Positions 27,191 to 37,808 of a stretch of 64,000 nucleotides of DNA are shown here, one piece after another. The position numbers and the translations under genes were made by a program. This DNA is from a virus. The stretch lies in IMG/VR virus record IMGVR_UViG_3300046333_000120; one strand, written 5' to 3'. The first letter of the stretch is position 1. Every line of letters begins with the position of its first letter. The notes under the pieces are model-generated. The model saw nothing but the letters and a program-made list of their open reading frames with translations, had not been told where the DNA came from and did not search any database.

Positions 27191-28477
27191 ATGAAATCAA
27201 AAATCCTTAATTTTAATCAGTTTTTAACTGAAAAATACGAAGTAAGATTAAATGAACAACTCCTATTAGAAGGAGGTGCTGCAGGACATATGTCTCATCC
27301 ATTTGATGAAAGAGACCTTACATTTAGTGACTTTAAGAAAATAATCGAAGCAGGTCTTTCGGGAGATTTAACATTTGAAGAAGATCCAACTGAAAAAACA
27401 GATGGACAGAATGTCTTTGCTACTGTCCAAGATGGTCAAGTTAAATTTGCAAGAAATAAAACTGAACTTAAGAATCCAATGGATCTTAATACATTTAAAC
27501 AGAAATTTACAGGACATCCAAGCAAAATGGTTGAAGAGACATTTCAATTTGCTGCAGAAGATTTAGCACATGCACTTATTAAATTGTCAGCCAAAGATTT
27601 AGAAGCATTTGATAATGGTAAGAATTTCATGAATATGGAGCTTATATATTCTAAGAATCCTAATGTTATTTATTACGATAGAGACATCATACAGTTTCAT
27701 GGGATTAAAATAACTGACGGTGAGGGTAATATTATCGGAGATGATAATAAATATGCTAGATCTATTGCAAAGGCCTTAGAAGATGTCAAGGCACACATAG
27801 GAAAGGTATTTACTATTATTCCTCCACAAATTATCAAGATAGGTAAGGATATAGATTTTAATATTAATAAATCCAAATTTATTAAAAAGGTAGAAGACTT
27901 AAAGAATCGTTATAAATTAACAGATGCCGATGAGGTTTCTAAATATCATGAAATGTGGTGGAGAGAATTAATAGACCAAAATTTCCCAGATTTAACACAG
28001 GATTTTAAAGAAGGTTTATTATTAAGATGGGCATATGATGATAAGAAAACTCTTAATTTAAGAAGTTTAGATAAAGAACTTGGAAAAGATAAAGCAGAAC
28101 TTATTAAGAAGTTTGATAAAGAAGATGTTAAAAAGAAATATAAAGAAAACATTAGACCATTTGAGGATTTATTTCTTGAATTAGGAAGTGTTATCTTAAA
28201 GAATGCAAGTAACTTTGTTGCTGCAAACCCAAAGGCAGAAATGCAAAGATTACATACCCAGATTAGAACAGAAGCTGAAAATATTAAATTGAATGGTGAT
28301 ACTGCTCAAATTGATAAAGTAATGTCAGAGCTTGAAAGACTTGATAGAATTGGAGGTATTGAATCAATTATTCCTACTGAAGGTATTGTATTTGTTTACA
28401 AAGGAAAAACTATGAAACTTACAGGTACATTTGCTGCCATCAATCAATTAATGGGTATCATTAAGTATGGTAGATAA
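27191..28477 (+). CDS. RNA-ligase-fold nucleotidyltransferase (DUF6267-like) with capsid-targeting-like leader
   Basis: Motif I TEKTDG, motif IV EGIVF, motif V MKLTG; leader KILNFNQFLTE; 'LLE|GGAAGHMSHPFD'. Confidence 0.55.
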   Translation: MKSKILNFNQFLTEKYEVRLNEQLLLEGGAAGHMSHPFDERDLTFSDFKKIIEAGLSGDLTFEEDPTEKTDGQNVFATVQDGQVKFARNKTELKNPMDLNTFKQKFTGHPSKMVEETFQFAAEDLAHALIKLSAKDLEAFDNGKNFMNMELIYSKNPNVIYYDRDIIQFHGIKITDGEGNIIGDDNKYARSIAKALEDVKAHIGKVFTIIPPQIIKIGKDIDFNINKSKFIKKVEDLKNRYKLTDADEVSKYHEMWWRELIDQNFPDLTQDFKEGLLLRWAYDDKKTLNLRSLDKELGKDKAELIKKFDKEDVKKKYKENIRPFEDLFLELGSVILKNASNFVAANPKAEMQRLHTQIRTEAENIKLNGDTAQIDKVMSELERLDRIGGIESIIPTEGIVFVYKGKTMKLTGTFAAINQLMGIIKYGR

Positions 28478-28828: not shown

Positions 28829-30724
28829 ATGGCATTACAAAAATTAAGAGAGTATTTTAACGAAACCAATAGAGAAAATTTTATTGAAATGTTAAAAAGT
28901 AGGGTGTTAGTGACTGAAAAGATTGCAGCACCATCTTTTCTTTTTAAAAGAAATACAGATGGATTTGAGTTTTATAAGTCTTCAACATCAGATAAATTAA
29001 ATTTTATTGATAGAACAGTTATATCACTATATGAAATGGCAATTAATCATTTACAGAGTTTACCAAGCGATGTAAAATCTCAGTTTCCATTAGATTGGAA
29101 ATTTGGATTTGAATATTTACCAGAAACCAAAGCGTCTAATATAGATTATGCCACAACTCCAACCAATAGTTTAATTCTTACACACATTCAACAATTGAGT
29201 GAAGGTGGAAAACTTAGAAAAACTATTAATGATCCATTAATTTTAAATAAATGGGCTAAATTATTAGAAGTGCAATCTCCCAGTGTTATTTTTGATGGTT
29301 ATATGTCACAACAACAAAGAGATGAACTTCTAACCGTATTATCAATGAGTGATAGAGAATTCTCAGATTCATTTGATTACGCAATAGAAACTGAAGATAA
29401 AACAAGTTTCACTTCAAAGATATTTAAGATGTTTAATCCAAATATCTATTCAACTGCACTAAATCCAGATCTTGAAACTGAAATTGATGGATTAGTTATA
29501 AACTTCATAGAAGCAAAAACAATGAAGTCATTTAAACTTGAAGATTTTTTAAGAGCTTCCGCTGATAAAAGAGATTTAAGAGCTTCTAGCCATACTTACC
29601 AAATTGCTGTAACTGATTTCTTAGAGTATATCATACAGCAAGATCTGAACGATATTAATTTAGAAGATGAACATGCCGATCATAGATACTTAGAATTAAT
29701 GTCAGTTTTATTTAATGGATATATTGATAAAAATTCTTCAAAATATATTGGTGTTAATTTTGAAAGTGCAGAATTTTCAGAAGCACAATCATTTAGATTA
29801 AATACCAAATATATTAAAAATGAAAAAACATTAAAATTTGTAAATAATGAAGTACTTGCTGAATTATTTAAAATGGTTTTAAGTTCTTTTAGAAAGAAAA
29901 GAACTAAAGAATCAGACTTAATTGACAAAGATACAATGTCAAGAATGAATGAAATTATTGATGCAATTAATGAAAAGATATTTGTAGAAAATACAGATGA
30001 AAATGCAATATACGATTATACTAATTTTATGTTACATAATAAGATTAAATCTTCAGTAAATTTAAATGAAGCTCTTACAGTAAAACACATGGAACAAGGT
30101 AAACAACCCGTAAATATGTTTGTTGGTAGATTTCAACCATTCACATTAGGGCACGCTAAGGTATTAGAAACAATGAATAAGGAAAATGGATTTCCAGTAG
30201 TTGTATTTTTAGTTAAATCTAAGGTTAAAAAGGGCGAGGAGTTTAGTAAACCATACGATGAAAAAACACAAGTTGATATGTTTAATCATGTCAAAAAACA
30301 ATATCCTTTTTTAAAGGAAATATATGTTGTTCCTAATGCTGCAATCGATACATTATATAATGAGATGAGACCGAAATATGAACCAGTATTATGGGGAACA
30401 GGATCTGATAGAATGAAAGGATATGGATATATGGTTAATAATGATTCTTATAGAGACCAATTAAATGCTAGGGCAGATTTTGGATTATTTGAGATTCCAA
30501 GAACAGACGATAATATTTCAGCAACCAAGGTTAGAAACGCAATGTTAGATGGAAATGAAAAAGATTTTCAGACAATGACACCTAAAGCTATTCATGGAAT
30601 GTATAAAGAATTAAAGTCAAAATTAGAAGATGCTATTGGAGTTGTTCACGAAAATATTGAAAATTCAGAAGAAATCATGACATTTGAACAATTCATAAAT
30701 AAATCTAAATATATAATCTTATAA
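28829..30724 (+). CDS. Fusion of a degenerate ligase-fold domain and an HxGH cytidylyltransferase-like domain
   Basis: N-terminal TEKIAA/DGLVI/FKL; C-terminal GRFQPFTLGH, GSDR, ISATKVR; linker LNE|A; C-terminal MTFEQFIN. Confidence 0.65.
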   Translation: MALQKLREYFNETNRENFIEMLKSRVLVTEKIAAPSFLFKRNTDGFEFYKSSTSDKLNFIDRTVISLYEMAINHLQSLPSDVKSQFPLDWKFGFEYLPETKASNIDYATTPTNSLILTHIQQLSEGGKLRKTINDPLILNKWAKLLEVQSPSVIFDGYMSQQQRDELLTVLSMSDREFSDSFDYAIETEDKTSFTSKIFKMFNPNIYSTALNPDLETEIDGLVINFIEAKTMKSFKLEDFLRASADKRDLRASSHTYQIAVTDFLEYIIQQDLNDINLEDEHADHRYLELMSVLFNGYIDKNSSKYIGVNFESAEFSEAQSFRLNTKYIKNEKTLKFVNNEVLAELFKMVLSSFRKKRTKESDLIDKDTMSRMNEIIDAINEKIFVENTDENAIYDYTNFMLHNKIKSSVNLNEALTVKHMEQGKQPVNMFVGRFQPFTLGHAKVLETMNKENGFPVVVFLVKSKVKKGEEFSKPYDEKTQVDMFNHVKKQYPFLKEIYVVPNAAIDTLYNEMRPKYEPVLWGTGSDRMKGYGYMVNNDSYRDQLNARADFGLFEIPRTDDNISATKVRNAMLDGNEKDFQTMTPKAIHGMYKELKSKLEDAIGVVHENIENSEEIMTFEQFINKSKYIIL

Positions 30725-33812: not shown

Positions 33813-34178
33813 ATGCCAAGTACTAGTATAGCGCAACAGCATCTAATGGGTATGGCATATTCTCTTAAAAAAGGAGAAATGGATCCTAAAGATGCAAGTC
33901 AAGAAGTAAAGGATCTTTCAGATTCTATGACACTTCAACAATTAAAGGATTTTGCAAGTACAAAACATGAAGGACTTCCAAAGAAGGCAGATGAAGGAGT
34001 TTCTTCTGAAAGCATTGGAGGTATGGGAGCGACTTTATTGCCTACTGCAACTCAACCAGGATCTGGGGATGTTCTATCAGGGGCAGGTGATGCAGAAGAG
34101 GAATACAAGAAAAAGAAAAGAAAGCGAGAAGGTATGTTAAAAACCTTTGAACAGTTTATAAATGAACAATATAATTAA
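33813..34178 (+). CDS. DUF3008-like protein with a C-terminal targeting-like motif
   Basis: 'MPSTSIAQQ...KKGE...SMT..QLKDFASTKHEGLP' fits the DUF3008 pattern; ends MLKTFEQFINE. Confidence 0.6.
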   Translation: MPSTSIAQQHLMGMAYSLKKGEMDPKDASQEVKDLSDSMTLQQLKDFASTKHEGLPKKADEGVSSESIGGMGATLLPTATQPGSGDVLSGAGDAEEEYKKKKRKREGMLKTFEQFINEQYN

Positions 34179-34229
34179 TAATTTGAGTATCATCGAATTA
34201 ACCCCTCCATAAATAGTATTTATGGACCG

Positions 34230-34260
34230 AAGACCCTAAGAAATTAGGGTCTTTTATTTT
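34230..34260 (+). terminator. Intrinsic terminator
   Basis: AAGACCCTAA-gaaa-TTAGGGTCTT plus T-rich tail; a second hairpin TCCATAAAT-agt-ATTTATGGA at 34206-26. Confidence 0.75.
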
Positions 34261-34262
34261 TA

Positions 34263-34291
34263 TGAAACAATTTAAATAACTATTATATAAG
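34263..34291 (+). promoter_or_regulatory. TGAAAC-N17-TATAAG promoter
   Basis: Motif match directly after the terminator. Confidence 0.55.
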
Positions 34292-34313
34292 TATAACATT
34301 TAACTTATATCAT

Positions 34314-34574
34314 ATGAATTATATTTTTAGGCCGGAAAACTGGAGTAAATGGTCAGTTTTAGCAATCGATAAAATAAATAAAACAATAGATTCATGCTCT
34401 ACTCAGGAACATTTGAATGTTGCCAAGGTAATGGTTGATAACTTTATAATAATAACTGCCTTAGAAGATAATATAACAGAGAAAGATCTAGAAGATGTTA
34501 TGAAATTGTTTTGGTTAAAATTAGACTTACAAAATCAATTAATTTTTGAAACAAATTTAAAAGTATTAGTATAA
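34314..34574 (+). CDS. Hypothetical protein, 86 aa
   Basis: ORF downstream of the promoter motif. Confidence 0.5.
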   Translation: MNYIFRPENWSKWSVLAIDKINKTIDSCSTQEHLNVAKVMVDNFIIITALEDNITEKDLEDVMKLFWLKLDLQNQLIFETNLKVLV

Positions 34575-34575
34575 A
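34547..34575 (+). promoter_or_regulatory. TGAAAC-N17-TATAAA promoter for the TROVE-like gene
   Basis: Motif match ending 24 nt before the ATG at 34599. Confidence 0.55.
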
Positions 34576-34598
34576 TTAAGAATATAAAAAATAACACA

Positions 34599-36023
34599 AT
34601 GAAATTTGTAGACGCTTTAAGACAAGAAGACATTTTAACAGAAAATGGAATGGCAACAAATTCAACTTCGTTGAATGCATGCGTTGATTTATTCTTTAAT
34701 ATTGGTGCAATGCGAGGTCAAGATAAACAACGTTTACTTGCAACTTTCTCTAAAGCTTTCAATGAAGACCCTAAGCGTGCTATGAAACTTTTGTTTTGGG
34801 CAAGAGATGTTAGAGGTGGAGCAGGAGAACGCCAGATATTTAAGGATATTTTAGTTTATTTAGCTGAAAATCACGATTTGGCTTTAAAACCAAATTTAGA
34901 TTTAATTGCAGAGTATGGTCGTTTTGATGATTTATTATCTTTATTAGGAACTTATTTAGAAAATGATGCTTTACGAATTATATCAGATGCACTTAACACT
35001 GAAAATGGATTATGTGCAAAATGGATGCCTCGTAAGGGTCAAAATGCAGAAAAAATCCGTGCATTCTTAAAATTATCACCAAAACAGTATCGTAAAACTT
35101 TAGTTAATTTAACGAATGTTGTTGAAACTAAAATGTGTGCTAAAGAATGGGACACTATTGATTTTGGTAAATTACCATCAGTAGCTTCTGCAAGATATCA
35201 AAAAGCTTTTGGTAAAAATGCATACACAAGTTACTCTGCTTATATAGAATCCCTTGTAAAGGGAGAAGCTAAAATAAATGCAGGTGCTATTTATCCTTAT
35301 GATGTTACTAAGTCATTAACACATGGTAATGCAAAGGTAGCAAACGAACAATGGAAAGCCCTTCCAAATTATCTAGAAGGTGCAAACGATATGATTTTAC
35401 CAGTAGTGGATGTTTCAGGTTCAATGTCATCTCCAGCAGGTGGTAGTAAAACTGTAACTTGTATGGATGTTGCTATCTCTTTGGGTCTTTATATTTCTGA
35501 AAGAAATGAAGGTGCTTTTAAGGATGCTTTTATTACATTCTCAAGTAATCCACAACTACAATTATTAAGTGGTTCATTAAGTGAGCGTTATGCACAAATG
35601 TCAAATGCAGATTGGGGAATGTCTACAAATCTGGAGTCAACCTTTAAATTAATTTTAAATCAAGCGACTAAACATAATTTATCTCAAGCTGAAATGCCAA
35701 ATAAAATTCTAATATTATCAGATATGGAATTTAATCAAGCAACTTCAACTGGTTGGAGAAATGAAGCATCATGGAACCCAACAGCTCAACAAGTAATTAA
35801 CGACATGTATGAGTCTTCAGGTTACAAAATGCCTCAAATTGTTTATTGGAACATTCAATCCAGAAATGGAGGAGTACCAGTTGCATTTGATACAGCAGGA
35901 ACTGCATTAATTTCAGGATTCTCTCCAGCAATTATGACAAGCTTACTTGGAGGAGATATTGAATCTCCACAGCAAATCATGGATAAAACAATTTTGAGTG
36001 AGAGATACGCTCCAATTGTTTAA
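34599..36023 (+). CDS. DUF2828/TROVE (Ro60-like) protein with C-terminal vWA domain
   Basis: 'TENGMAT', 'LLFWARDVRGGAGER', 'CAKWMPR', MIDAS 'VVDVSGSM', 'ILSDMEF', 'VYWN', 'ISGFSP'. Confidence 0.75.
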   Translation: MKFVDALRQEDILTENGMATNSTSLNACVDLFFNIGAMRGQDKQRLLATFSKAFNEDPKRAMKLLFWARDVRGGAGERQIFKDILVYLAENHDLALKPNLDLIAEYGRFDDLLSLLGTYLENDALRIISDALNTENGLCAKWMPRKGQNAEKIRAFLKLSPKQYRKTLVNLTNVVETKMCAKEWDTIDFGKLPSVASARYQKAFGKNAYTSYSAYIESLVKGEAKINAGAIYPYDVTKSLTHGNAKVANEQWKALPNYLEGANDMILPVVDVSGSMSSPAGGSKTVTCMDVAISLGLYISERNEGAFKDAFITFSSNPQLQLLSGSLSERYAQMSNADWGMSTNLESTFKLILNQATKHNLSQAEMPNKILILSDMEFNQATSTGWRNEASWNPTAQQVINDMYESSGYKMPQIVYWNIQSRNGGVPVAFDTAGTALISGFSPAIMTSLLGGDIESPQQIMDKTILSERYAPIV

Positions 36024-36038
36024 GATATATAATAAAAT

Positions 36039-36336
36039 TGGTTCTTTACAGCAAATAATAAACAAGCAAAACAATTAGCAACTACGATTAGAACCAGGTG
36101 GATCGGTACAGCAAAAAGTACAAACACAGATATGATAGCCAACGTATTACAGAGATAGCATCAAGTATAACAGGCAAATGGAAGTTTACCAGTATAAAAA
36201 ATGGACAAACGTCATACCACCTCAATAGGTGACAAGTAGGATGGGTCGAAGTTTAGTAGACGCTCACGAAAGTCAAAGCCGAAGACGTAAAAACAAGGTT
36301 ATTCTGCCGAGAAGAAAATCACGAACAACGATCCCG
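36039..36336 (+). ncRNA. Candidate Y-RNA-like non-coding RNA (two tandem elements)
   Basis: No ORF of 60 aa or more; own GATATATAA at 36024-32 and terminator; two units GGNTCN-N-TACAGCAAA...NGANCC with compensatory stem changes. Confidence 0.55.
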
Positions 36337-36345
36337 TTATAATTT

Positions 36346-36372
36346 AATCCAGACTTAAGTCTGGATTTTTTT
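36346..36372 (+). terminator. Intrinsic terminator closing the ncRNA
   Basis: AATCCAGAC-ttaa-GTCTGGATT followed by TTTTT. Confidence 0.8.
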
Positions 36373-36394
36373 ATGCAAATATTCCATTTAGTTT

Positions 36395-36423
36395 CGAAAC
36401 AAATTATCAATTCGATATATAAT
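36395..36423 (+). promoter_or_regulatory. CGAAAC-N17-TATAAT promoter overlapping a late motif
   Basis: Motif match; GATATATAA at 36414-22. Confidence 0.55.
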
Positions 36424-36439
36424 AACTAAACACGAATTT

Positions 36440-36712
36440 ATGAATAATATTTTAGAAGAAGCAAATCAAATTGTTAATCGCAGGTCAGAAGAAGCTGATC
36501 GTAATTATGGTCCATTTTCAGAAGGAATGGATAGAGCTGCCTTAATTTTTCAAGGTATGACTGGAATTGAAGTTACAGGAGAACATATGTTTAAGGCACT
36601 TATTGCTCTTAAGTTTTCAAGGGAATCTTATAACCATAAGAAAGATAATTTATTAGATGCAGTTGCGTATATCCAAGGATTAGATAACTACATTAACGAA
36701 AAACAAGTTTAA
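36440..36712 (+). CDS. DUF6378-like nucleotide-metabolism protein
   Basis: 'ILEEANQIV...YGPF...LKFSRE..NHKKDNLLDAVAYI' pattern. Confidence 0.6.
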   Translation: MNNILEEANQIVNRRSEEADRNYGPFSEGMDRAALIFQGMTGIEVTGEHMFKALIALKFSRESYNHKKDNLLDAVAYIQGLDNYINEKQV

Positions 36713-36713
36713 T

Positions 36714-37808
36714 ATGAAAATACTTTTTACAGGGTGTACCGCAAAACAAATAGATGATGATGCTTATAAAAGAGCAAGAGTAAAAAGAATTGATGACAGT
36801 TCCATTATTTGTAATTCTTTAAGAAAACAAGGATATTCAGTAGATCGTAAACCTGTTAAATGGGGAGAAGATCTTTCAGAATATGGATTAGCAATTATTG
36901 GAGTTGGACAATTTGGTTCAAACAATTACTCTGGAGAAATCTTCAATGTTCTATATGCACTTAAAACAGTAAAGAATGTTATTATATTTCATGAAGATTG
37001 GAAAATCGATGGAACTATGAAATCTTGGGCAGGCATGTTAAATCAAGAAACATTCGATAAATCAATTGCAAAAAAATGGAGTGATGGCAAATATTTTTAT
37101 GGAGGTGTAGATAATCCAAATTTCAATCCAACTGAAGCAATTGAAGTTATTCGCAAAGTTGTTAATGGGGAATTTGAAAATGCATTAATTCCTGCATTTG
37201 ATTGGGGAGATAAAGAAAAGGTTAGAGATATTATTAAAGTAAAAAATATATTTAATATAGATCTAACTCCTTATGTATTAGACACATGGAATATTAAATT
37301 AGATGTAGAACCACAGGTAAAGGAGAAAAAACATATGCTTGCTTCACTTGTTGACCATCGACCATGGGTTCGAAGGAATAAATTAAAATGGCAAGTAGAT
37401 TATTTTGGTGCAAAGAGTATTAAAGAGGCTAGTCAGTTGGCAACAGAAACTGACGTATTCGAAGCGTGTGGAAAGTATTGGGGAATTTTATGTCCAGAAT
37501 ATCCTCATGCAGGTTCAGGTTGGTTTAGAATTAGATGGATTTATGCTGCAATTCAAAAATCAGTATTATTATCCTCACCGAAAGACCTAGAGGCACTTGG
37601 ATTACCACAGAGTAACATTGAGATGTTGAGTGATAATCAACTAGAAGAATATGCAAAGTTACAGTCTGACACTGTATTGTCTTATATGTGGAGCAAAAAC
37701 GCATTTGATGAAAAGGTTGCAGGAATGGTAGAAATATTATGTGATACTTTGTCTAAAGATACTGAAACTAAAGTTGCAGCACCGCTTAAACAAAACGCAC
37801 TTTTTTAG
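36714..37808 (+). CDS. Putative DNA glycosyltransferase (GT-B, T4 beta-glucosyltransferase-like)
   Basis: MKILFTG start, 'LRKQGYSVD...DLSEYGLAIIG', C-terminal 'GWFRIRWIYAAIQKSVLL' parallel BGT 'ITLRVWETMASDAVML'; similar length. Confidence 0.5.
   Translation: MKILFTGCTAKQIDDDAYKRARVKRIDDSSIICNSLRKQGYSVDRKPVKWGEDLSEYGLAIIGVGQFGSNNYSGEIFNVLYALKTVKNVIIFHEDWKIDGTMKSWAGMLNQETFDKSIAKKWSDGKYFYGGVDNPNFNPTEAIEVIRKVVNGEFENALIPAFDWGDKEKVRDIIKVKNIFNIDLTPYVLDTWNIKLDVEPQVKEKKHMLASLVDHRPWVRRNKLKWQVDYFGAKSIKEASQLATETDVFEACGKYWGILCPEYPHAGSGWFRIRWIYAAIQKSVLLSSPKDLEALGLPQSNIEMLSDNQLEEYAKLQSDTVLSYMWSKNAFDEKVAGMVEILCDTLSKDTETKVAAPLKQNALF

What the first reader, a model, noticed from the sequence alone, without database searches (positions are those of the whole stretch)
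34599..36372. Ro60/TROVE-like protein followed by tandem Y-RNA-like ncRNAs: candidate phage ribonucleoprotein system
Seen: right after the DUF2828/vWA gene is a roughly 340-nt unit with no sizeable ORF, its own late motif (36024-32) and a terminator (36346-72). It holds two elements with the same architecture. Element 1: GGTTCT-T-TACAGCAAA (36040-55) closing with AGAACC (36090-95). Element 2: GGATCG-G-TACAGCAAA (36100-15) closing with CGATCC (36329-34). The two 6-bp stems differ at two positions and both changes are compensatory; the 9-mer beside the stem is identical; the interiors differ in length (about 45 vs about 220 nt; the longer has hairpins such as CACCT-caat-AGGTG). Known: Ro60 binds Y RNAs at a stem formed by their 5' and 3' ends, with a variable module recruiting partners, and bacterial rsr-yrl loci sit with RtcB RNA repair genes. 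Inference: these RNAs are ligands of the DUF2828 protein with a different recognition motif, forming a phage RNA repair, decoy or scaffold system together with the ligase-fold genes 4-8 kb upstream. Two copies are thin evidence alone, and I cannot confirm that this is undescribed.
Basis: partly seen in the sequence, partly recalled or inferred. Interest (0 to 1): 0.9.

Follow-up and report, generated by a model that had tools for sequence, protein, structure and literature searches.

The report
Phage Ro60-like protein with handle RNAs
A freshwater T4-like phage encodes a ring-shaped relative of the RNA-binding protein Ro60, followed by a separately promoted unit for two RNAs that share one conserved "handle"; the same pairing recurs in very different phages, is in no RNA catalogue or paper I found, and looks like an undescribed branch of the Ro60/Y-RNA particle.

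Summary
The gene at 34599-36023 is Pfam DUF2828+DUF7788. Its AlphaFold model (pLDDT 90) matches Ro60 over the whole length (Z 22.8 to 1yvp), and the MIDAS residues are invariant.

The 340-nt unit has a phage promoter motif (36024-32) and an intrinsic terminator (36346-67). It holds a 56-nt and a 235-nt element. Each is closed by a 6-bp stem followed by N-UACAGCAA.

- All 75 related metagenomic loci with enough downstream DNA carry this handle, with covarying stems.
- A covariance model finds it in 10 of 10 whole phage records that encode a DUF2828 homolog, across Proteobacteria, Firmicutes, Actinobacteria and other host groups. It finds it in 0 of 5 control phages without one.
- Contigs from four freshwater metatranscriptomes cover the unit and stop at the terminator.

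Rfam has no family for it. The handle scores below threshold against Dictyostelium Class I RNA (RF01414). In a 91%-identical relative, one handle RNA carries YrlA-like tRNA-mimic cargo.

Binding of the RNAs by the protein is inferred, not shown. The claimed upstream "ligase-fold" genes are not supported. A 45%-identical homolog, Bas63 gp130, is a published anti-Ppl counter-defence protein.

This scan has already noted the same pairing on other DNA (292 notes, at least 222 genomes).

The parts
34599..36023 (+). Gene for a 474-aa Ro60-fold protein: an N-terminal helical-repeat ring (Pfam DUF2828) and a C-terminal vWA domain (DUF7788) with a complete MIDAS motif (D271, S273, S275, T343, D375)
   Evidence: Pfam. 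PHROG 850. MIDAS columns invariant in 66 homologs. AF2 model pLDDT 90.3. Foldseek top 13 hits are all Ro60/TROVE. VIA-align Z 22.8 to 1yvp_A with 414 residues aligned.
36024..36032 (+). Phage promoter motif GATATATAA, 8 nt upstream of the first stem
   Evidence: The motif occurs 13 times in the window, all on the + strand (3.1 expected on both strands; 0 of 100 shuffles reach 13). The same motif precedes the RNA pair in related loci.
36040..36095 (+). Short handle RNA (56 nt). P1 stem 36040-45 with 36090-95, spacer U at 36046, motif UACAGCAA at 36047-54. The loop is A-rich and G-poor and holds two further AGCAA repeats (36065-69, 36077-81).
   Evidence: CM R1 60 bits, E 3e-12; R2 46.5 bits, E 1e-8. 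All 6 P1 pairs covary. AGCAA repeats.
36100..36334 (+). Long handle RNA (235 nt). P1 36100-05 with 36329-34, spacer G at 36106, motif UACAGCAA at 36107-14. Helix H-a ACGUC/GACGU at 36209-13 with 36284-88. Hairpin CACCU-CAAU-AGGUG at 36218-31. Hairpin H-t UUCU-GCCG-AGAA at 36302-13. The 5' domain is variable and the 3' domain is conserved.
   Evidence: Alignment A3 of 25 homologs, (P1 and H-t covary). H-a and H-t counted over 36 distinct sequences. An RNA-run contig covers 36144-36326 with 1 mismatch (X20).
36346..36374 (+). Intrinsic terminator (9-bp stem, 4-nt loop, T run) ending the RNA unit
   Evidence: Terminator hairpins with different, covarying stems follow the long element in the relatives. 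Metatranscriptome contigs stop at about 36353.

Best explanation
The gene encodes a phage member of the Ro60 superfamily: a helical-repeat ring joined to a vWA/MIDAS domain, known to Pfam only as DUF2828+DUF7788.

Directly after it lies a separate transcription unit, from the GATATATAA promoter motif to an intrinsic terminator. It makes two non-coding RNAs, either as one roughly 330-nt transcript or, after processing, as RNAs of about 56 and 235 nt.

Each RNA starts and ends in a 6-bp clamp helix. The helix is followed on the 5' side by one unpaired base and the single-stranded motif UACAGCAA. I call this the 'handle'.

I infer that the handle is the docking site for the Ro60-like protein. This parallels the terminal stem plus 5'-strand motif of Y RNAs, which docks Ro60. 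The variable interior is then the cargo:
- in the short RNA, an unstructured A-rich stretch with extra AGCAA repeats;
- in the long RNA, a structured domain of about 220 nt.
The cargo would recruit, gate or decoy another factor.

By analogy with a published homolog (Bas63 gp130, 45% identical, counters the Ppl defence), the particle most likely serves the phage in its conflict with the host over RNA or nucleic-acid-directed defence.

Shown here: the protein fold, the RNA family and its covariation, genome-level co-occurrence, and presence in RNA libraries.
Inferred: protein-RNA binding, processing into two RNAs, and the biological role.
For: Fold:
- AF2 model pLDDT 90.3.
- The top 13 Foldseek PDB hits are all Ro60/TROVE.
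- VIA-align Z 22.8, 414 of 474 residues aligned to Xenopus Ro60 1yvp_A; vWA-only proteins reach Z 9.1 at most.
- The MIDAS residues are invariant in 66 homologs.

RNA family:
- All 75 IMG/VR loci (59-95% aa identity) with at least 400 nt of downstream DNA carry 1-3 handle elements after the gene. In 20 of them the RNAs still follow after an inserted small ORF.
- All six P1 pairs show changes on both sides, 100% of cells are paired, and 0 of 500 shuffles reach the observed score.
- H-a and H-t in the long RNA covary.

Breadth: handles flank or accompany DUF2828 genes in Felixounavirus, KVP40-like, Campylobacter, Synechococcus, Listeria, Staphylococcus, Enterococcus, Bacillus, Aeromonas, mycobacteriophage LeBron and Lak phages.

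Co-occurrence: CM R2 finds 2-11 hits at E<=0.1 in 10 of 10 whole records that have a homolog. It finds none in 5 records without one: T4, T5, phiKZ, SPO1 and Bxz1, 860 kb in total.

Y-RNA link: in a 91%-identical relative, a handle RNA encloses cargo that hits Rfam YrlA at 34.5 bits, E 2e-5, with T and D arms.

Expression: contigs from 4 metatranscriptome runs of 4 studies cover the gene and the RNA unit and end at about 36353. In one run (X20) the only contig laid is 36144-36326.

Promoter and terminator.

Homolog function: PMC11482910, with homology confirmed.
Against: - No direct evidence of binding; no tool here tests a protein-RNA complex.
- In PhageMaP, gp130 alone, expressed from a plasmid or inside T7, counters Ppl. 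That activity at least does not need the phage's own handle RNAs.
- The window's RNAs match neither tRNA nor YrlA models at E<=10, so the cargo of this locus gives no clue to a partner.
- The RNA-run evidence consists of assembled contigs from the phage and its relatives. Depths cannot rank regions, and DNA carry-over cannot be excluded (tool caveats).
- The alignments used for covariation were fitted to the model.
- In Dictyostelium, the one known direct binder of the look-alike Class I RNAs is an RRM protein, Rnp1A (PMC7919456), not a Ro60-like protein.
Confidence: 0.7

Rival explanations
1. The RNAs are real, but their handle is read by some other factor: a host protein such as Hfq, or another phage protein or nuclease. 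They sit beside DUF2828 genes only because both belong to the same tRNA/RNA-metabolism gene neighbourhood.
For: - In jumbo phages and in the 256-kb relative, handle clusters lie tens to hundreds of kb from the DUF2828 gene, among tRNA genes.
- The short RNA's loop is 50% A and 9% G with AGCAA repeats, and it weakly resembles the Hfq/Crc sponge CrcZ (E 1).
- gp130 works against Ppl without the phage RNAs.
- Class I RNAs bind the RRM protein Rnp1A.
Against: - Genome-level co-occurrence is 10 of 10 with a homolog against 0 of 5 without, across hosts from several phyla that share no single host factor of this kind.
- In most lineages the RNAs directly abut the gene on the same strand.
- In KVP40-type phages the handle sits in the gene's own 5' UTR.
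- The Ro60 fold is that of a protein known to bind exactly this kind of stem-plus-5'-motif RNA.
Confidence: 0.15
2. The elements act mainly in cis or as titrators. The handle is an operator through which the protein controls its own synthesis, and the free-standing RNAs only buffer the protein's level. They would not form an effector particle.
For: In KVP40 and Vibrio phage 1.081.O a 40-nt handle hairpin lies in the 5' UTR of the DUF2828 gene. Its loop holds the Shine-Dalgarno sequence, and its 3' arm overlaps the start codon (R2 E 0.0026).
Against: - The window's gene has no handle in its 5' UTR.
- Here the RNAs have their own promoter and terminator.
- The cargos are long, conserved and structured or tRNA/YrlA-like in relatives. 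A mere titrator would not need that.
Confidence: 0.1
3. The unit is not an RNA gene. It would be a set of repeats, attenuators or terminator-like hairpins, or a small protein-coding ORF (36098-36232).
For: A 44-aa GTG ORF overlaps element 2. The MFE z-score of the whole 340 nt is only -1.46.
Against: - A conserved single-stranded motif sits next to covarying stems.
- Homolog lengths run from 181 to 259 nt with indels that break any reading frame.
- The elements lie on the gene's strand in 45 of 50 CM hits.
- The unit is present in RNA libraries up to the terminator.
Confidence: 0.03

Closest known systems
Ro60 (Rsr, TROVE + vWA) with Y RNAs: metazoan Y RNAs, Deinococcus Yrn1, bacterial and mycobacteriophage YrlA/YrlB (Chen et al. 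2014, PMC4201824; Rfam RF02553); Thermus phage phiLo Ro60 (PMC12135203, PDB 9l5y)
   Same: - Same protein fold over the whole length (Z 22.8 to 1yvp; Z 15.8 to phiLo Ro60), with a MIDAS-bearing vWA domain.
- The RNAs are encoded next to the gene on the same strand.
- The 5' and 3' ends form a stem with a conserved motif on the 5' side, and the interior is a variable module.
- Several RNAs occur per genome.
- In a close relative, one handle RNA carries a YrlA-like T-arm/D-arm cargo.
   Different: - No sequence-level TROVE match. Pfam files the protein as DUF2828/DUF7788, and a profile of 66 homologs reaches Ro60 chains only at E 0.03-0.1.
- The 5' motif is ACAGCAA rather than GNCGAA(N)G or GGUCCGA.
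- The window's RNAs have no tRNA-like domain.
- Bxz1, a cluster C mycobacteriophage, has no handle hits. Chen et al. 2014 report Ro60 and YrlA in cluster C phages; I did not check Bxz1 for a TROVE gene here.
Class I RNAs of dictyostelid social amoebae (Rfam RF01414; Kjellin et al. 2021, PMC7919456)
   Same: [quoted passage not shown]
- A conserved, unpaired motif ...UUACAGCAA lies next to the 5' arm.
- Length is about 60 nt, and the rest is variable and A/U-rich.
- A (C/U)GU follows the 3' arm, compare the Class I CUGU end.
- RF01414 hits phage handles at 19-30 bits: 7 of 8 in Aeromonas phage 4_4572 and 3 in the window phage's relative.
   Different: - All hits are below the gathering score of 41.5.
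- The window's own short element is not hit at E<=10.
- The long element is 235 nt and has G instead of T at motif position 3.
- Class I RNAs were reported as unique to Dictyostelia, use a DUSE promoter, and their known direct binder is an RRM protein.
- Common descent is not shown.
Bas63 (Escherichia phage JohannRWettstein) gp130, an anti-Ppl counter-defence protein (PhageMaP preprint, PMC11482910)
   Same: - 45% identical over 470 residues, E 4e-131.
- The authors noted its Ro60-like structure.
- The gene lies directly upstream of a tRNA array in which R2 finds handle RNAs.
   Different: - The authors guessed that some annotated tRNAs might be Y RNAs. The handle RNAs between the tRNAs were not described.
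- The protein alone sufficed against Ppl.
- Nothing is known about Ppl or any other defence in the window phage's host.

Membership tests
Ro60 / Y RNA ribonucleoprotein | Protein with the Ro60 architecture: a helical-repeat ring plus a vWA domain with MIDAS | tested here: met
   VIA-align Z 22.8, rmsd 4.0, 414 residues aligned to 1yvp_A. Foldseek top 13 hits are all Ro60/TROVE. DxSxS..T..D is invariant.
Ro60 / Y RNA ribonucleoprotein | Sequence membership in the Pfam TROVE family | tested here: not met
   Pfam gives only DUF2828 and DUF7788 at E<=0.01. A profile of 66 homologs reaches Ro60 chains at E 0.03-0.1, over the vWA part only.
Ro60 / Y RNA ribonucleoprotein | Partner RNA whose 5' and 3' ends pair, with a conserved 5'-strand motif, encoded near the protein gene on the same strand | tested here: met
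   P1 covariation. The position after the gene is conserved in all 75 loci with enough downstream DNA. 45 of 50 CM hits lie on the gene strand.
Ro60 / Y RNA ribonucleoprotein | Canonical Ro-binding motif, GNCGAA(N)G or GGUCCGA, in the terminal helix | tested here: not met
   The conserved motif beside the stem is (U/A)NC(A/U)GCAA. The canonical motif is as given in PMC4201824.
Ro60 / Y RNA ribonucleoprotein | Rfam YrlA (RF02553) or Y_RNA match, tRNA-like domain | tested here: not met
   Neither window RNA has a YrlA or tRNA hit at E<=10. A relative's handle RNA scores 34.5 bits, E 2e-5, below the gathering score of 69.
Ro60 / Y RNA ribonucleoprotein | Physical binding of the RNA by the protein | not testable with these tools
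   Needs RIP/CLIP, EMSA or a solved structure.
Dictyostelium Class I RNA (RF01414) | 6-bp terminal stem, an 11-nt motif next to the 5' arm with T3, C6, C9, A10, A11, and a length of 42-65 nt | tested here: inconclusive
   Element 1 (56 nt; CUUUACAGCAA) meets all of these. Element 2 (235 nt; CGGUACAGCAA) fails on length and on T3.
Dictyostelium Class I RNA (RF01414) | Score at or above the Rfam gathering threshold (41.5 bits) | tested here: not met
   No hit on the window's element 1 (36025-36110) at E<=10. Related phage handles score 19-30 bits.
Pfam DUF2828 / DUF7788 (PHROG 850) | Match above the curated cut-offs | tested here: met
   DUF7788 176.5 bits (cut-off 27.1) and DUF2828 117.6 bits (cut-off 29). 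PHROG 850 E 1e-158. 6643 representative clusters at E<=0.001.

The most novel reading that the evidence does not exclude
The stem-plus-ACAGCAA handle is the universal docking tag of the DUF2828 branch of the Ro60 superfamily. Phages use it to load interchangeable RNA cargos onto one ring protein: tRNA/YrlA-like mimics, A-rich stretches, or the 220-nt domain seen here. The resulting counter-defence particle would be the mechanism behind the anti-Ppl effect of Bas63 gp130. The Dictyostelium Class I RNAs, unexplained since 2004 and thought unique to social amoebae, would be the same kind of RNA, with a DUF2828-type protein as their missing partner.
Probability: 0.25. Interest if true: 0.9.

Novelty: new variant of a known kind. 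Interest (0 to 1): 0.8.

Why it matters
Ro60/Y-RNA particles are conserved from bacteria to humans, where Ro60 is a lupus and Sjogren autoantigen. Their prokaryotic biology is known from only a handful of cases.

This finding has four consequences.
- It gives a large uncharacterised protein family a specific, testable RNA partner. The family has 6643 representative clusters at 50% identity and homologs in 710 phage records.
- It defines an RNA family that is missing from Rfam and found in phages of many phyla.
- It connects that family to a published counter-defence phenotype (anti-Ppl).
- It offers a lead on the function of Dictyostelium Class I RNAs.

For phage annotation, it explains 'empty' spacers after DUF2828 genes and inside tRNA arrays. 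The window adds two things of its own: a clade-specific 235-nt cargo with covarying helices, and metatranscriptome evidence that the unit is present in environmental RNA.

Tried and rejected
- Rfam at gathering thresholds on the whole window found nothing. At E<=10 on the unit (35900-36500) and on element 1 (36025-36110) it gave only chance-level hits: L10_leader, RyhB, RAGATH-17, CrcZ.
- ARAGORN found no tRNA in the window.
- A single-sequence fold of the 340 nt had a weak z-score, -1.46.
- RNAalifold on MAFFT alignments of the long element recovered only P1, H-t and a possible 3-bp long-range pair. The central region is too variable to align. I did not reach a full secondary structure.
- The GUAC/GUAC mini-hairpin that would present AGCAAAAA in its loop is kept in only part of the clade, so I do not count it as a family feature (reading).
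- MAFFT could not align the 3' arms of short elements of unequal length. I bootstrapped the CM from equal-length elements instead.
- Phmmer against PDB sequences found only designed repeat proteins.
- No whole genome is held for the window, so genome-wide counts come from a relative and from public phage records.
- Pfam, PHROGs and NCBIfam gave no ligase or RNA-repair family for the ORFs 4-10 kb upstream. The Atlas look-up of 27191-28477 only pointed to viral clusters, about a quarter of whose members carry DUF6267.
- Chen 2014 supplements are not held, and Avesson 2011 is not in the library.
- I could not test whether Dictyostelium encodes a DUF2828 homolog.
- The RNA-run depth differences between the RNA unit and its neighbours are contig depths summed over relatives. 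I do not use them to rank expression.
Full report
**1. What is in the sequence**

ORF 34599-36023 (474 aa) ends in TAA at 36021-23. GATATATAA follows at 36024-32.

The two elements are:
- Element 1, 36040-36095: GGTTCT-T-TACAGCAA...AGAACC.
- A 4-nt spacer.
- Element 2, 36100-36334: GGATCG-G-TACAGCAA...CGATCC.

A terminator follows at 36346-67: a 9-bp stem, a 4-nt loop and a T run. The two stems differ at two positions, and both changes are compensatory.

Within the window, 126 C[AT]GCAA motifs occur on both strands. Five satisfy the descriptor '6-bp arm, one base, NNC[AT]GCAA, perfect closing arm within 300 nt'. Permuted motifs close at 2.8% per motif, so about three chance hits are expected. 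The adjacent pair after the gene stands out mainly through comparison with other genomes.

GATATATAA occurs 13 times in the window, always on the + strand, against 3.1 expected on both strands. It behaves like a phage promoter box.

The surrounding genes are T4-like: a UvsW-type helicase, a family B DNA polymerase and a ribonucleotide reductase small chain. DNA runs that hold the stretch are freshwater metagenomes.

**2. The protein**

Pfam assigns DUF2828 to the N-terminal part and DUF7788 to the C-terminal part. PHROGs assigns family 850, 'RNA-binding protein'.

The family is very large. It has 6643 representative clusters at E<=0.001 and homologs in 710 phage records.

A 66-sequence alignment shows an invariant DxSxS...T...D MIDAS motif. 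From that alignment AlphaFold2 gave a model with pLDDT 90.3 and pTM 0.89.
- Foldseek's 13 best PDB matches are all Ro60/TROVE structures.
- VIA-align gives Z 22.8 (414 residues aligned, rmsd 4.0) to Xenopus Ro60 in complex with RNAs. It gives Z 15.8 to the Thermus phage phiLo Ro60. Proteins that share only the vWA domain stop at Z 9.1.

At sequence level the link is sub-significant: a profile of the family reaches Ro60 chains at E 0.03-0.1. The protein is therefore a structural member of the Ro60 superfamily that sequence family libraries do not connect to TROVE.

**3. The RNAs are a conserved family**

A scan of IMG/VR returned 80 loci with 59-95% protein identity. Every one of the 75 loci with at least 400 nt of downstream sequence carries handle elements after the gene:
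- 28 have the adjacent short-plus-long pair.
- 20 have the same pair after an inserted small ORF.
- 15 have one element.
- 12 have three.

The stems change while staying complementary: GGTTCC/GGAACC, GGATAG/CTATCC, GGTTTC/GAAACC, GAATGA/TCATTC, GAGTGG/CCACTC and others.

I built a covariance model by bootstrapping from equal-length short elements (R1, then R2). It aligns 24 elements in which all six P1 pairs show changes on both sides and 100% of cells pair. No shuffle of 500 reaches the observed score. One caveat applies: the alignment is fitted to the model.

The motif next to the 5' arm is (U/A)NC(A/U)GCAA, and its C, A, C, A, A positions are invariant. Short-element loops are 50% A and 9% G. 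They contain extra AGCAA copies, 35 observed against 2.6 in shuffled loops, although many of these sequences are related. The window's element 1 has three AGCAA, at 36050, 36065 and 36077.

**4. The long element**

Thirty-six distinct homologs of 181-259 nt share the handle, a variable 5' domain and a conserved 3' domain. Three helices hold up:
- P1 covaries at two positions.
- H-a, ACGUC/GACGU at 36209-13 with 36284-88, has the variants AGUC/GACU (9 sequences), CAUC/GAUG, UGUC/GACA and a G-U form.
- H-t, UUCU-GCCG-AGAA at 36302-13, has the variants UUCC/GGAA, AGCU/AGCU and CCU/AGG in 36 of 36 sequences.

A 3-bp long-range pairing, CCC with GGG, covaries to UCU/AGA. It would form a pseudoknot with H-a and remains a candidate only. 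I could not derive a complete structure.

The cargo matches no Rfam family. It shows no tRNA-like domain either.

**5. The pairing recurs across unrelated phages**

The same handle lies beside DUF2828 homologs in many lineages:
- Felixounavirus: four elements between the tRNAs.
- Campylobacter CPX: two.
- Synechococcus B3: one.
- Listeria LMTA-148: two to three.
- Staphylococcus S-CoN_Ph7: three in tandem.
- Enterococcus VRE9_3: one.
- Bacillus FADO: three.
- Aeromonas 4_4572: eight in tandem.
- Mycobacteriophage LeBron: two to three.
- Lak-B5: one.

In KVP40 and Vibrio phage 1.081.O, a 40-nt handle hairpin sits in the gene's own 5' UTR.

Whole-record scans with R2 at E<=0.1 found 2-11 hits in 10 of 10 records that encode a homolog. 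This includes jumbo phages whose handle clusters lie far from the gene. The same scan found none in T4, T5, phiKZ, SPO1 and Bxz1. Those five lack a homolog and total 860 kb.

In the window itself R2 finds only element 1. The long element escapes the model because of its insert.

**6. Links to known RNAs**

Rfam has no family for these RNAs.

- Kjellin et al. 2021 (PMC7919456) describe 42-65-nt RNAs with a 6-bp terminal stem and an 11-nt motif next to the 5' arm. T3, C6, C9, A10 and A11 of that motif are nearly invariant.
- The Rfam consensus is GaUcuC-CUUACAGCAAU...GagAuC-UG.
- RF01414 hits 7 of 8 handles of Aeromonas phage 4_4572 at 19-30 bits, E from 0.003. It hits 3 handles in a relative of the window phage.
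- All these scores are below the gathering score of 41.5. The window's element 1 is not hit.

The resemblance in design is therefore striking, but membership is not met and common descent is open.

The link to Y RNAs is more direct. The 256-kb relative G001 (91% protein identity) has a second handle cluster among tRNA-Ala and tRNA-Gly genes. One RNA there is closed by AGGATGG-TT-CCAGCAA...CCATCCT, and its cargo hits YrlA (RF02553) at 34.5 bits, E 2e-5, with aligned T and D arms. Canonical Y RNAs carry GNCGAA(N)G or GGUCCGA instead of ACAGCAA.

**7. Expression**

Six freshwater metatranscriptome runs hold part of the stretch. I laid four runs from four studies on 34000-37200, counting contigs at least 85% alike. 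Contigs cover the gene and the RNA unit, and cover ends at about 36353, just before the terminator stem. In run X20 the only contig laid is 36144-36326, with one mismatch.

These are assembled contigs from this phage and its relatives. They show presence in RNA libraries. They do not show ends, strand or level.

**8. Mechanism**

The best-supported reading is a Y-RNA-like particle. The Ro60-fold protein docks on the handle, and the interior is cargo.

Published data on homologs add two points.
- Bas63 gp130 is 45% identical to the window protein, and handle RNAs lie in its tRNA array. It counters the Ppl defence, and it does so even alone on a plasmid or inside T7.
- LeBron gp53 is moderately toxic when overexpressed.

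The protein thus has activity without its phage RNAs. The RNAs may direct, gate or extend that activity.

RNA ligase or RtcB genes do lie near homologs in Salmonella phage SE_PL and Listeria phage LMTA-148.

**9. Novelty and verdict**

I found no paper that describes these RNAs. The PhageMaP authors only guessed that some annotated tRNAs might be Y RNAs.

This scan has recorded the same pairing many times on other DNA: 292 notes in at least 222 genomes.

I class the finding as a new variant of a known kind (Ro60/Y RNA).

Noticed in passing
L082 1933-1972 (KVP40) and L083 1957-1996 (Vibrio phage 1.081.O): A 40-nt handle hairpin lies in the 5' UTR of the DUF2828 gene itself. The Shine-Dalgarno sequence is in the loop, and the 3' arm (AATGTC) overlaps the ATG start codon. 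This is a candidate translational auto-operator. R2 E 0.0026 and 0.16.
   Followed up: partly
L096 3900-5000, minus strand (G001, a 256-kb relative of the window phage): A second cluster of four handle RNAs lies among tRNA-Ala and tRNA-Gly genes. One carries YrlA-like cargo. Another has two alternative 3' arms (GAAACC at 33 nt and at about 140 nt) that enclose, or exclude, a permuted tRNA-like T-arm/acceptor/D-arm cargo.
   Followed up: partly
window 36050-36081: The short element carries three AGCAA repeats spaced 15 and 12 nt apart in an A-rich, G-poor loop. Across 44 short elements the loops hold 35 extra AGCAA against 2.6 expected. A weak CrcZ-like hit (E 1) hints at an Hfq-type ARN stretch.
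   Followed up: partly
window 36261-36380: A weak Rfam L10_leader hit (22.9 bits, E 0.15) rests on the two boxes CCGAAGAC and UGCCGAG plus the terminator. Both boxes are highly conserved in the long element, and the second is nearly invariant. Probably chance, but unexplained.
   Followed up: no
window, 13 sites (6966, 19093, 20556, 25134, 36024, 36414, 40755, 43365, 52772, 53622, 58015, 59847, 61463): GATATATAA occurs only on the + strand, about four times more often than expected. It is a likely promoter box of this phage, resembling the T4 late promoter TATAAATA.
   Followed up: partly
L005, L009, L013, L026-L030 and others, between the DUF2828 stop codon and the RNA pair: In 20 related loci a small ORF (an insert of about 300-400 nt) sits between the gene and the RNA pair. 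The promoter box then precedes the ORF rather than the RNAs.
   Followed up: no
window 28829-30724: A 631-aa protein whose C-terminal third is an NMN-adenylyltransferase-like nucleotidyltransferase. The first 370 residues have no family. This is a NAD-salvage type enzyme, not a ligase.
   Followed up: partly
window 36218-36222 with 36296-36299 region (A3 columns 158-160 / 243-245): A candidate 3-4-bp long-range pairing (CCC/GGG, covarying to UCU/AGA in another clade) would cross helix H-a and form a pseudoknot in the long element.
   Followed up: partly
W05 301.7-308.5 kb, W06 336-345 kb, W07 195.9-196.1 kb, W08 176.7 kb: In the jumbo and T4-like phages pEa_SNUABM_49, SE_PL, phiAS5 and KVP40, handle RNAs cluster tens to hundreds of kb away from the DUF2828 gene. 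I did not inspect what lies around them.
   Followed up: no
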